Below are positions 10,700 through 11,764 of a stretch of 64,000 nucleotides of DNA, in pieces. Below the pieces are notes generated by a model. It saw nothing but the letters and a program-made list of their open reading frames with translations. It had not been told where the DNA came from and ran no database searches. The stretch's first letter is position 1. Every line of letters begins with the position of its first letter. The DNA is from Escherichia phage P1, in the sequence record MH445381.1; one strand, given 5' to 3'. The position numbers and the translations under genes are program-made.

Positions 10700-11239
10700 C
10701 TACCACCAACTGCTAGCTTTCTTCTCTCTAGCTTTTCCTTCGCTTTGCAGTAAATCTTTACTTCCTGTAGAAATATTTCTATTTGCATCAGCCTCAGACT
10801 GAATTACATCTGTCTTAGCTGCTCTCTCCTTCAACTCCTGCTCTATAAAATCGTTTTCTCGCTGGACACGAGCCGCTTTTGCTTGCAGTTCGAGTTTCAT
10901 GCTTTCGAGTTGCAGCTTGCGAAGCTCATCCTCATAAGCTTGATCTCGCTTCTTGTCATTTGCTAGCTCGGCTTCTCGTTTCGCTCTACGTTCATTTTCT
11001 GCAGCAACACGCTGTTTTTCGCGTGCAGCAGCGGCAGATGCTGCTTTTTCTCTTCTAATACGTTCAGCTTGTGCTTGTTGGCGAATAAGTTCTTTTCTGG
11101 CATCCTCAGCTTGCTGCTCTTTAGCTCGCCCTTCATTTTCCGCTTGAGCAATAGCAGCAATTTGACTTTGCAACGAGTTAGCCAAGGCAGTGCCTACACT
11201 AAACGTAGAAAAGATTAGAAATAAAATAATTTTATTCAT
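10700..11239 (-). CDS. secreted or membrane-anchored coiled-coil protein (TolA-like charged helix)
   Basis: N-terminal hydrophobic signal MNKIILFLIFSTFSVGTALA followed by Ala/Glu/Arg/Lys-rich helical repeat. Confidence 0.6.
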   Translation of the reverse strand: MNKIILFLIFSTFSVGTALANSLQSQIAAIAQAENEGRAKEQQAEDARKELIRQQAQAERIRREKAASAAAAREKQRVAAENERRAKREAELANDKKRDQAYEDELRKLQLESMKLELQAKAARVQRENDFIEQELKERAAKTDVIQSEADANRNISTGSKDLLQSEGKAREKKASSWW

Positions 11240-11242
11240 AAA

Positions 11243-11764
11243 TTATTTCTTTTCTGGACAAGTAGCATTTGGCTGAATTCGAGTTTCATTATCTTTAGTT
11301 GAAATAAGCACAGCAAGCCCCGTTGTAAACTGGCATGCTTTACCAACTTGAGTTGAAGTGAACACCTTAGTTCCTTCTTTATAAGTCAGTGAAACACCTT
11401 CAACAATTGTTTTATCACTAACCAAAGAACCAGCCGCTGCACCAAGAGCCGCACCACCAGTACCGCCAGCTACAGCACCCAGTGTCGATGTGCCTTTAAC
11501 ATTATAACCGGCAACGCCCCCAGCAACAGCTCCCAGTACCGCACCAAATGTCTGTGCCGCTTCTTTATTAGCTTTATTATCAACTTTCACTTTAGCTGGA
11601 AGCACAGAGATAATATTGACTGTCTTTGTTTCCTGCTTCGAATTCAATTGAGCGGTATCATAAACATCGGCAGCATAATCAGCACCGCTAGATTGACACC
11701 CAGAAAGAAGAATTGCAGATACAACAAGAGCGCATAAAGTATACTTTTTAGACATAAGAATCAT
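11243..11764 (-). CDS. glycine-zipper lipoprotein
   Basis: Lipobox LLSGC; glycine zipper GAVLGAVAGGVAGYN / GAVAGGTGGAALGAAAG; 3 nt upstream of the coiled-coil gene. Confidence 0.6.
   Translation of the reverse strand: MILMSKKYTLCALVVSAILLSGCQSSGADYAADVYDTAQLNSKQETKTVNIISVLPAKVKVDNKANKEAAQTFGAVLGAVAGGVAGYNVKGTSTLGAVAGGTGGAALGAAAGSLVSDKTIVEGVSLTYKEGTKVFTSTQVGKACQFTTGLAVLISTKDNETRIQPNATCPEKK

What the first reader, a model, noticed from the sequence alone, without database searches (positions are those of the whole stretch)
10700..11764. Lipoprotein plus secreted coiled-coil pair at the position of the sim locus
Between the tail block and c4, where P1 carries simABC by my recollection, there are two envelope-targeted genes: a glycine-zipper lipoprotein and a signal-peptide protein with a TolA-like charged helix. 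Envelope protein pairs at immunity-adjacent loci are typical of superinfection exclusion, but no family was recognised.
Basis: inference. Interest (0 to 1): 0.55.

Follow-up and report, generated by a model that had tools for sequence, protein, structure and literature searches.

The report
Phage copy of yfgH-yfgI envelope genes
In the slot where phage P1 keeps its sim "superimmunity" genes, this P7-type P1-like phage carries its own diverged copy of the E. coli outer-membrane stress operon yfgH-yfgI; the genes are already annotated in P7, but what they do for the phage has never been tested.

Summary
Two minus-strand genes fill 10700-11764. One encodes a 173-aa lipoprotein with a glycine zipper. 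The other encodes a 179-aa protein with a signal peptide followed by one long charged helix. They lie between the tail-tube operon and c4, where P1 has simABC.

The statement that no family is recognisable is wrong. The pair is P7 upf50.5/upf50.0. It is a diverged paralogue of the core E. coli operon yfgH-yfgI (67% and 47% amino-acid identity). The second protein is Pfam DUF5384 (E 3e-43). The lipoprotein is homologous to SlyB over its full length (profile E 1e-9, fold E 1.5e-6). Neither protein resembles SimA, SimB or SimC.

The cassette replaces sim exactly between the late promoter LPsit and the C1 operator Oc4. This slot is polymorphic in P1-like phage-plasmids, and every occupant I examined encodes secreted proteins. 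The lipoprotein and helix genes were adjacent in all 95 loci that had the lipoprotein. Related pairs also sit in other prophages and plasmids. Two old phage alleles differ with dN/dS of about 0.05.

The most likely role is an accessory module that strengthens the lysogen's outer membrane, as host YfgH does. Superinfection exclusion is plausible from position alone and is untested. This is a new member of a known kind, of moderate interest.

The parts
11243..11764 (-). yfgH-like outer-membrane lipoprotein gene (P7 upf50.5). It is 173 aa from the first ATG; the probable true start is 11755, giving 170 aa.
   Evidence: ORF. 100% identical to P7 Upf50.5. 67% identical to K-12 YfgH over 171 aa, E 6e-73. 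A family profile hits SlyB 7ojf_A at E 1.1e-9 over nearly the full length. Foldseek top hit is SlyB, E 1.5e-6.
11696..11764 (-). Lipoprotein signal peptide and lipobox (residues 1-23, ...LLSG|C). Cys23 is invariant.
   Evidence: Read from the sequence. C23 is invariant in 48 homologues. Gln at +2 implies outer-membrane sorting; this is the established Lol rule applied by inference.
11426..11575 (-). Glycine-zipper helical hairpin (residues about 64-113), the predicted membrane-inserted part.
   Evidence: Helices 64-88 and 94-113 in the model. Sub-threshold Pfam glycine-zipper and TraT hits at residues 59-145. G74, G78 and G82 are invariant. This region aligns to the SlyB hairpin.
10700..11239 (-). 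yfgI-like DUF5384 gene (P7 upf50.0), 179 aa: a cleavable signal peptide followed by one helix of about 158 residues.
   Evidence: Pfam PF17358 E 3e-43, 147.8 bits against a cut-off of 25. 47% identical to K-12 YfgI, E 9e-46. AF2 predicts a single helix at residues 3-178, pLDDT 87.7. Composition and weak heptads.
11177..11239 (-). Sec signal peptide of the DUF5384 protein (residues 1-21, ...TALA|NS).
   Evidence: Read from the sequence. P7 annotates a sig_peptide here.
11765..12045 (-). AT-rich (31% GC) cassette-specific upstream region. The promoter is not identified. A block at about 11795-11850 is conserved between alleles A and B. A 15-nt direct repeat lies at 11909-11923 and 11995-12009.
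   Evidence: Composition. No homology to the P1 or K-12 upstream regions. Only one weak sigma-70-like match, at 12031..12003; the number of promoter-like sites in the scanned region (3) is not above the shuffle expectation (3.1).
12046..12062 (+). C1 repressor operator Oc4, the right-hand boundary of the cassette. All slot variants become identical from here rightwards.
   Evidence: Operator pattern match. P7 annotation. The four-way alignment shows divergence starting right after ...TTATTAGAGCA. P1 homology resumes at 12048.
10651..10669 (-). Late promoter LPsit, the left-hand boundary of the cassette. P1 homology ends at 10671.
   Evidence: P7 and P1 annotation. Exact pattern match. The megablast match of P1 stops at query position 272, which is window 10671.
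10672..12047 (-). The whole replaceable cassette (1376 bp) that stands in place of P1 simABC.

Best explanation
The two genes are a phage-plasmid-borne, long-diverged copy of the enterobacterial two-gene envelope module yfgH-yfgI. They sit as an accessory cassette in the variable slot between the tail-tube operon and immI, where P1 carries simABC.

Shown here:
- The first product has the hallmarks of an outer-membrane lipoprotein.
- It is homologous over its full length to YfgH and, more distantly, to SlyB. SlyB forms rings in the outer membrane through a glycine-zipper helical hairpin.
- The second product is a secreted DUF5384 protein predicted to be a single helix of about 24 nm.
- The two genes are always adjacent and are probably co-translated.

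Inferred:
- In the lysogen the lipoprotein assembles SlyB/YfgH-type oligomers that corral lipids and outer-membrane proteins.
- The helical partner works with it in the periplasm.
- Because the phage copy has its own upstream region, unrelated to the stress-induced chromosomal one, it adds YfgHI-type capacity to the cell. This would harden the outer membrane against detergents, bile, chelators and peptides.
- That benefit to the carrier cell is what keeps the cassette in P1-like elements and other temperate phages.

Reduced entry of other phages could be a side effect or an added function, but it is not needed for this explanation.
For: Identity:
- 67% and 47% amino-acid identity to K-12 YfgH and YfgI over the full length.
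- DUF5384 far above the Pfam cut-off.
- The chromosomal pair is in 5420 of 5426 complete E. coli genomes.
- SlyB homology by profile (E 1.1e-9) and by fold (E 1.5e-6, prob 1.0).

Function of the family:
- yfgH deletion gives SDS/EDTA sensitivity, outer-membrane permeability and OMP loss.
- yfgH is induced on LptD, LpxC or BamA depletion.
- Mild overexpression rescues outer-membrane biogenesis knock-downs.
- An earlier genetic link to lptD exists (PMC3219608).
Extra dosage is therefore known to be protective.

The phage genes are functional:
- dN/dS is 0.06 (H) and 0.04 (I) between alleles A and B, with saturated synonymous sites.
- The cysteine pair C144/C169, the zipper glycines and the C-terminal DUF5384 motif are invariant.

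The pair acts as a unit:
- The I gene follows the H gene on the same strand in 95 of 95 loci.
- In the window they are 3 nt apart, the second gene has no Shine-Dalgarno sequence, and a weak hairpin spans the junction.

Mobile cargo:
- Related pairs lie at the tail-fibre end of a P2-like-tail prophage at two different chromosomal sites.
- Another lies in a Salmonella prophage between an anti-repressor and tail-fibre genes.
- Another is on a phage-plasmid-like contig of about 102 kb.
- Another is on a Vibrio conjugative plasmid.

Independent regulation: the upstream region is unrelated to that of chromosomal yfgH.
Against: - No expression data exist for the phage copy, and no convincing promoter was found.
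- Nearly every E. coli host already has yfgHI, so the added value of a second copy is assumed, not shown.
- The slot's best-known occupant, sim, is an exclusion-type function, and all other occupants are also secreted proteins. This hints at a common phage-directed role rather than host fitness.
- The monomer model of the lipoprotein is of low confidence (pLDDT 57), and ring formation is only predicted even for host YfgH.
- The role of YfgI is unknown. The YfgH preprint does not mention it.
Confidence: 0.5

Rival explanations
1. Superinfection exclusion, a functional replacement for Sim. The outer-membrane ring lipoprotein and its periplasm-spanning helical partner would block adsorption, tail penetration or DNA passage of incoming P1-like or other phages. 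This would parallel the way plasmids co-opted the ring-forming lipoprotein TraT for surface exclusion.
For: - The cassette occupies exactly the sim interval, with boundaries at LPsit and Oc4.
- Every occupant of the slot that I examined encodes signal-peptide proteins: SimC/SimB in P1, gp34/gp35 in Ro157c2YLVW, and this pair.
- In other prophages the pair sits next to tail-fibre or anti-repressor genes. From general knowledge, that is a classical place for exclusion morons such as cor.
- TraT is a precedent: a chromosomal outer-membrane lipoprotein recruited several times by plasmids for exclusion (PMC11733297).
- YfgH binds OMPs that many phages use as receptors.
Against: - There is no sequence or fold relation to Sim, Cor or Llp.
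- The TraT similarity is sub-threshold and limited to the helical hairpin (23.1 bits against 31; E 0.16-0.3). TraT's globular core domain is a different, LptE-like alpha/beta fold. That its membrane topology is inverted relative to SlyB (globular domain outside the cell rather than in the periplasm) is my reading, not a statement in either paper.
- There are no PADLOC hits.
- Purifying rather than diversifying selection is not what an arms-race determinant usually shows.
- P1 adsorbs to LPS core rather than to an OMP (general knowledge).
- No phenotype has been reported.
Confidence: 0.3
2. A passenger with no phage-specific role. The slot is a recombination hot spot that picks up low-GC DNA. 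The pair would be kept only because it is harmless or mildly useful, as many morons are.
For: - The sim region is one of eight variable, low-GC regions of P1-like phage-plasmids (PMC9603915).
- sim genes are dispensable for plaque formation.
- The cassette is flanked by scars of earlier exchanges: simA is a remnant of another gene.
Against: - Strong purifying selection acts on both genes across alleles with saturated dS.
- The cassette is carried by about a third of P1-like elements in complete E. coli genomes.
- The two genes are retained together in several unrelated mobile elements.
Confidence: 0.1
3. A lytic-cycle function at the envelope. One form is a spanin-like pair, with an outer-membrane lipoprotein plus a periplasmic coiled coil disrupting the outer membrane at lysis. 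Another form is interference with host YfgH/SlyB rings by mixed oligomers, to weaken or time outer-membrane failure.
For: - The architecture superficially resembles Rz/Rz1.
- The genes point the same way as the late tail operon, with no terminator before LPsit.
- Host YfgH co-purified with SlyB and Slp, so mixed oligomers are conceivable.
Against: - P1 lacks the cassette yet is a fully lytic-competent phage.
- The helical protein has a cleavable signal peptide, not a membrane anchor.
- The PHROG spanin hit is E 0.038 and covers only the signal peptide.
- The same pair is a core chromosomal operon in E. coli.
- No late-promoter motif lies upstream of the pair.
Confidence: 0.05

Closest known systems
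E. coli YfgH-YfgI (b2505-b2506), the chromosomal operon next to guaA
   Same: - Same gene order, sizes (172/179 aa) and signal sequences.
- 67% and 47% identity over the full length.
- Same glycine zipper, C-terminal Cys pair and DUF5384 C-terminal motif.
   Different: - It sits on a phage-plasmid in the sim slot.
- Its upstream region is unrelated and AT-rich, and the gene junction lacks the chromosomal Shine-Dalgarno sequence.
- It falls in a separate clade made largely of copies from phages, prophages or genomic islands, in an NJ tree without bootstraps.
- The YfgI-like protein ends in ...SWW instead of ...SWFN.
SlyB (PDB 7OJF/7OJG), a PhoP-regulated outer-membrane lipoprotein that forms rings around lipids and OMPs
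   Same: - Full-length sequence-profile homology (E 1.1e-9).
- Best structural match (E 1.5e-6).
- Same order of elements: lipid anchor, beta strand, glycine-zipper hairpin, beta domain.
   Different: - Only about 23% identity.
- From my own knowledge of the E. coli map, slyB has no DUF5384 partner gene; this was not checked here.
- YfgH and SlyB do not cross-complement, and their suppressors differ: clsA for yfgH, Mla for slyB.
P1 SimC/SimB/SimA (superimmunity)
   Same: - Same genomic slot, same orientation, and the same secreted-protein character.
- Dispensable accessory genes.
   Different: No detectable sequence similarity. No lipoprotein. The phenotype of the P7-type cassette is unknown.
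TraT (F-like plasmid surface-exclusion lipoprotein; PDB 9FS5, 9FSM, 9E2V)
   Same: - An outer-membrane lipoprotein that oligomerises and crosses the membrane with two helices.
- Of chromosomal origin and co-opted by mobile elements.
- Weak Pfam and Foldseek echoes.
   Different: - The score is below the Pfam cut-off and the fold match is not significant.
- TraT's globular core is an LptE-like alpha/beta domain, not the SlyB-type beta domain.
- On my reading, TraT's core domain faces outward and its helix-connecting loop faces the periplasm, which would be the opposite of SlyB; neither paper makes this comparison.
- TraT does not appear in the PDB profile search at E <= 10.
Prophage envelope lipoprotein morons such as lambda Bor and phi80/N15/T5 Cor or Llp
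   Same: Lipoprotein genes carried by temperate phages that change the cell surface. This comparison is from general knowledge.
   Different: No homology. The PHROG Cor hit is E 0.022 and covers the signal peptide only. Those are single small proteins, not a two-gene module with a host paralogue.

Membership tests
YfgH family (glycine-zipper 2TM outer-membrane lipoprotein) | Full-length sequence homology to E. coli YfgH | tested here: met
   67% identity over 171 aa, E 6e-73. 483 homologues found.
YfgH family (glycine-zipper 2TM outer-membrane lipoprotein) | Lipobox with an invariant Cys and a non-Asp residue at +2 (outer-membrane sorting) | tested here: met
   LLSG|CQ. C23 is invariant in 48 sequences. 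Localisation itself was not tested.
YfgH family (glycine-zipper 2TM outer-membrane lipoprotein) | GxxxG/A zipper hairpin and a C-terminal beta domain with a conserved Cys pair | tested here: met
   G74, G78, G82, C144 and C169 are invariant. Secondary structure.
YfgH family (glycine-zipper 2TM outer-membrane lipoprotein) | Stabilises the outer membrane under stress; oligomeric rings | not testable with these tools
   Known only for the host protein. Rings are a prediction even there.
YfgI / DUF5384 (PF17358) | Pfam model match above the gathering score | tested here: met
   147.8 bits against a cut-off of 25, E 3e-43, profile positions 4-145 of 145.
YfgI / DUF5384 (PF17358) | Encoded immediately downstream of a YfgH-type lipoprotein gene | tested here: met
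   95 of 95 loci, same strand, gap of at most 63 nt between the aligned segments.
SlyB-like lipoproteins | Sequence and fold homology to SlyB | tested here: met
   hmmsearch E 1.1e-9 to 7ojf_A over query 9-162. Foldseek E 1.5e-6, TM 0.58 normalised to the target. The model pLDDT is only 57.
SlyB-like lipoproteins | Orthology to SlyB (same function, PhoP regulation) | tested here: not met
   About 23% identity. YfgH and SlyB are functionally distinct. A PhoP-box-like half site upstream was noticed by eye only and was not tested.
P1 Sim (superimmunity) | Homology to SimC, SimB or SimA | tested here: not met
   BLASTP E of at least 0.04 with only short fragments aligned.
P1 Sim (superimmunity) | Location between pmgC and Oc4/c4 | tested here: met
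P1 Sim (superimmunity) | Blocks superinfecting P1 after adsorption | not testable with these tools
   Needs plating and DNA-entry assays.
TraT surface-exclusion lipoprotein (PF05818) | Pfam match at or above the gathering score; TraT fold | tested here: not met
   23.1 bits against a cut-off of 31, covering the hairpin region only. Foldseek E 0.16-0.30, TM of at most 0.25. No hit in the PDB profile search. TraT's core domain is a different, LptE-like fold.
Spanins (Rz/Rz1) | Inner-membrane-anchored coiled-coil protein plus a small outer-membrane lipoprotein, within a lysis cassette | tested here: not met
   The helical protein has a cleavable signal peptide. PHROG Rz-like hit is E 0.038 on the signal peptide only. 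The genes are not near lysis genes, and P1 lacks them.
Known anti-phage defence systems (PADLOC) | Match to any PADLOC model | tested here: not met
   No hits at E <= 1 for either protein.

The most novel reading that the evidence does not exclude
Temperate phages have recruited a SlyB/YfgH-type outer-membrane nanodomain system, together with its periplasm-spanning helical partner, as a superinfection-exclusion or entry-barrier module. It would be interchangeable with Sim in P1-like phage-plasmids and would be placed beside tail-fibre genes in other prophages. This would be a phage counterpart of the plasmid co-option of TraT. It would also give the first functional handle on the uncharacterised partner YfgI (DUF5384).
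Probability: 0.25. Interest if true: 0.65.

Novelty: new member of a known kind. Interest (0 to 1): 0.38.

Why it matters
If the phage copy works like host YfgH, P1-like phage-plasmids would change the outer-membrane robustness of their hosts. These elements are common in gut E. coli and Salmonella and often carry resistance genes. Tolerance to detergents, bile and perhaps antibiotics could be affected.

The mobile copies also bear on the host system. The lipoprotein gene is always moved together with the DUF5384 gene, and both are under strong purifying selection. This argues that YfgI is an obligate partner of YfgH, which the current YfgH work does not address.

The sim slot has three or more interchangeable cassettes of secreted proteins. 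That makes it a compact natural experiment for finding envelope-level phage-phage or phage-host functions.

Tried and rejected
- Sim homology: BLASTP against SimA, SimB and SimC gave nothing.
- Defence systems: PADLOC gave nothing.
- NCBIfam: only noise.
- TraT membership was rejected. The Pfam score is sub-threshold, the fold match is not significant, and TraT's core domain is a different fold.
- Cor and spanin PHROG hits were rejected because they match only the signal peptide.
- The PHROG 1277 label 'DNA methyltransferase' was rejected as a misannotation. The protein is a 173-aa lipoprotein with no methyltransferase features.
- Promoter search: only one weak sigma-70-like site lies upstream of the pair, and the number of promoter-like sites in the scanned region is not above chance. 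No P1 late-promoter motif lies upstream of the pair.
- An RcsB-box-like motif at 11815-11828, recalled from memory, is conserved between alleles but is not more frequent than chance. PhoP and sigma-E look-alikes seen by eye were not convincing.
- The IMG/VR scan mostly returned host yfgH at the ends of predicted proviruses, which is a boundary artefact and not phage cargo.
- The monomer AF2 model of the lipoprotein was poor (pLDDT 57). I therefore relied on the sequence profile as well as the fold search.
- The DUF5384 profile has no solved relative, so I did not run a fold search on a single helix.
- The P1 genome paper (PMC523184) is not held.
- No paper mentions DUF5384 or upf50.0/upf50.5.
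Full report
**What is there**

The interval 10700-11764 holds two adjacent minus-strand ORFs. The upstream ORF (11243..11764, 173 aa) starts with a lipoprotein signal peptide and the lipobox LLSG|C, followed by Gln. It has a Gly/Ala-rich zipper at residues 74-114 and a C-terminal domain with two cysteines. The downstream ORF (10700..11239, 179 aa) starts 3 nt after the first stops. It has a Sec signal peptide ending in ALA|NS. The rest is 42% charged and 19% alanine.

The window is 100% identical to GenBank MH422554, a P1-like phage from infant faeces, and 98.9% identical to phage P7. In P7 the two genes are annotated upf50.5 ('outer membrane lipoprotein of unknown function') and upf50.0 ('membrane protein of unknown function'). 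Both annotations note similarity to E. coli K-12 proteins. To the left lie the late promoter LPsit and the pmgC/tub/pmgB/sit tail operon. To the right lie the C1 operator Oc4, the c4 antisense RNA (Rfam hits at 12123-12175 and 12243-12328), icd, ant and kilA.

**Relation to sim**

P1 carries simC, simB and simA in the same interval. P1 and the window are collinear up to 10671, just past LPsit at 10651-10669. They are collinear again from 12048, inside the 17-bp C1 operator at 12046-12062. The 1376 bp between these points is a clean cassette replacement. Neither protein shows any similarity to SimA, SimB or SimC. This is not a diverged sim locus.

**What the genes are**

The second protein matches Pfam DUF5384 at 147.8 bits against a cut-off of 25. 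A DNA search of 5,426 complete E. coli genomes found the pair at about 69% nucleotide identity in 5,420 of them, annotated yfgH-yfgI next to guaA. At protein level the phage lipoprotein is 67% identical to K-12 YfgH. The phage DUF5384 protein is 47% identical to K-12 YfgI. Both alignments are end to end.

A profile of 48 YfgH-family sequences hits SlyB (PDB 7OJF/7OJG) at E 1.1e-9 over almost its full length. The AlphaFold monomer model is weak (pLDDT 57). Even so, it has the SlyB order of elements, and its only significant Foldseek match in the PDB is SlyB (E 1.5e-6).

The DUF5384 protein is predicted with pLDDT 88 to be one uninterrupted helix. Its mature length of 158 residues gives about 24 nm. 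Heptad-like hydrophobic spacing appears only in the conserved C-terminal half. The N-terminal half varies in length and is rich in E, R, K and A. No solved structure is related to it.

**What is known about the family**

Deletion of yfgH aggravates lptD defects and gives vancomycin-induced bulging (PMC3219608). A 2025 preprint reports several findings (bioRxiv 10.64898/2025.12.22.696046):
- YfgH fractionates with the outer membrane.
- It is strongly induced when LpxC, LptD or BamA is depleted.
- It is needed for SDS/EDTA tolerance.
- It rescues outer-membrane biogenesis knock-downs when mildly overexpressed.
- Its deletion phenotype is suppressed by clsA mutations.
- It is predicted, not shown, to form SlyB-like rings.

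That paper does not mention yfgI at all. A yfgI mutant was reported as sensitive to nalidixic acid (PMC3536626). In my view an outer-membrane permeability defect could explain this as well as a DNA-repair defect. In S. Typhi the orthologous operon srgIL is activated by SdiA (PMC11619404).

**The slot and the mobile copies**

Among complete E. coli genomes, 509 carry the neighbouring P1-type tub/pmgC genes. Of these elements:
- 182 genomes carry this cassette.
- 127 carry a full simABC.
- About 165 match only the simA-proximal 230 bp of the P1 sim region.

That last group fits a third cassette seen in phage Ro157c2YLVW. Its two genes also encode signal-peptide proteins. P1 SimA (52 aa) is 93% identical to the first 41 residues of Ro157 gp35 (215 aa). 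simA therefore looks like the stump of an earlier occupant. A published survey lists the sim region among eight variable, low-GC regions of P1-like phage-plasmids (PMC9603915). sim is dispensable for plaque formation (PMC10695390).

A second allele of the yfgHI-like cassette (84% and 80% amino-acid identity) sits in the same slot of other IncY plasmids from E. coli and Cronobacter. There an extra DUF559/REase-like gene lies between it and pmgC. Between the two alleles, synonymous sites are saturated while dN/dS is 0.06 and 0.04. Both genes are therefore old and under strong purifying selection.

Related pairs occur in several other mobile contexts:
- At the tail-fibre end of a P2-like-tail prophage, found at two different chromosomal sites in E. 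coli.
- Between an anti-repressor gene and tail-fibre genes in a Salmonella prophage.
- On a phage-plasmid-like Salmonella contig of about 102 kb.
- On a Vibrio conjugative plasmid.
- On 7.5-kb ColE1-type plasmids.
- In a transposase-rich island.

In a neighbour-joining tree without bootstraps, the P1-type alleles group with the prophage-borne copies and apart from core E. coli YfgH. In all 95 fetched loci that contain a lipoprotein homologue, a DUF5384 gene follows on the same strand. By contrast, most IMG/VR hits at 66-69% identity are host yfgH at the ends of predicted proviruses. These are an artefact of boundary calling, as is the copy in the phage TL-2011b record.

**Expression signals**

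The 281 bp upstream of the lipoprotein gene (11765-12045) is 31% GC. It has no similarity to the upstream region of chromosomal yfgH or of sim. Only one weak sigma-70-like site was found upstream of the pair, at 12031..12003, and the number of promoter-like sites in the scanned region (3) matches the shuffle expectation (3.1). No P1 late-promoter motif lies upstream of the pair. A block at about 11795-11850 is conserved between the two alleles. A 15-nt direct repeat lies at 11909-11923 and 11995-12009. An RcsB-box-like match in the conserved block is not above chance. The second gene has no Shine-Dalgarno sequence, and a modest hairpin (-8.5 kcal/mol, z -2.15) spans the stop/start junction, which fits translational coupling. 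No terminator separates the pair from LPsit. When the cassette is expressed, and under whose control, remains open.

**Interpretation**

The molecular identity is secure. This is a phage-plasmid-borne YfgH-YfgI module: a SlyB-type outer-membrane lipoprotein and its helical periplasmic partner.

For the biological role I favour outer-membrane hardening of the carrier cell (confidence about 0.5). This is the only activity shown for the family. Extra YfgH is protective in experiments. The phage copy has escaped the stress-dependent chromosomal upstream region. The selection pattern is conservative rather than diversifying.

Superinfection exclusion (about 0.3) is supported by position, by the secreted nature of all slot occupants, by placement next to tail-fibre genes in other prophages, and by the TraT precedent (PMC11733297). 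No sequence, fold or phenotype evidence supports it. The TraT resemblance itself fails the membership tests.

A neutral passenger (about 0.1) and a lysis or interference role (about 0.05) are less likely, for the reasons given under the rival explanations.

**Novelty**

The genes have been annotated in P7 for two decades, and the family now has a described function. The finding is therefore a new member of a known kind. What is new here:
- The explicit link between the P7-type sim-slot cassette and yfgHI/SlyB.
- The evidence that the slot cycles between at least three secreted-protein cassettes.
- The recurrent carriage of the intact two-gene module by unrelated temperate elements.

Noticed in passing
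L002 7556-7714 (P1 simA) compared with L007 3307-3954 (Ro157c2YLVW gp35): P1 SimA (52 aa) is 93% identical to the first 41 residues of a 215-aa signal-peptide protein of phage Ro157c2YLVW. simA therefore looks like the truncated remnant of a previous occupant of the slot rather than a gene in its own right.
   Followed up: partly
window 11243-11764; RefSeq NC_050152, NC_031129, NC_042128, NC_019445; OR339795: The lipoprotein is labelled 'DNA methyltransferase' in PHROG 1277 and in several RefSeq phage records. In phage phi456 the pair is labelled 'minor tail protein / tail tip protein'. These are clear misannotations that are spreading.
   Followed up: partly
L007 2779-3954 (Ro157c2YLVW); about 165 E. 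coli genomes: A third cassette type occupies the same slot. It has two unrelated genes, both encoding signal-peptide proteins of 158 and 215 aa, with no significant Pfam family. Its function is unknown.
   Followed up: partly
L004 4889-6148 (pLR-25_1, allele B plasmids): In plasmids with the 84%-identical allele, an extra 419-aa gene lies between the DUF5384 gene and pmgC. It has N-terminal hydrophobic segments, a proline/lysine-rich repeat and a DUF559/REase_MTES_1575 nuclease-like domain. It may be a defence gene.
   Followed up: no
L093-L095 7001-8071; L008 4001-5071: A widespread E. coli prophage with P2-like tail genes (gpU, gpX, gpD) carries a yfgHI-like pair (73% identity) just beyond its tail-fibre genes. 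It is found at two different chromosomal sites, one beside yecD/aspS and one beside a PLD-like gene.
   Followed up: partly
L031-L092 (IMG/VR) and JQ011317 41921-42436: Dozens of predicted proviral contigs, and the deposited phage TL-2011b record, end in host yfgH. A prophage integrates near yfgHI/guaA, and boundary calls include host DNA.
   Followed up: no
window 11909-11923 and 11995-12009: A 15-nt direct repeat CC[A/C]TCTGCATTATTT (14 of 15 identical, 86 bp apart) lies in the AT-rich region upstream of the lipoprotein gene. It may be a regulator binding site. Its meaning is unknown.
   Followed up: no
L005 3118-6063 (7.5-kb ColE1-type plasmid pYLMB10c): A small mobilizable plasmid carries a phosphoethanolamine transferase gene next to a yfgH-like gene (75% identity) and a truncated yfgI-like gene. 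These are two envelope-modifying functions side by side.
   Followed up: no
window 11205-11270 (minus strand): A weak RNA hairpin (-8.5 kcal/mol, z -2.15) pairs the stop codon region of the lipoprotein gene with sequence just after the start of the DUF5384 gene, which has no Shine-Dalgarno sequence. This suggests translational coupling.
   Followed up: partly
window 10620-10666: An 18-nt inverted repeat (89% complementary, 11 nt between the arms) overlaps LPsit and the leader of pmgC. It lies in the part conserved with P1.
   Followed up: no
window 32628-32781 and 34586-34661: Three tRNA genes (Asn-GTT, Thr-TGT, Met-CAT) lie elsewhere in the window.
   Followed up: no
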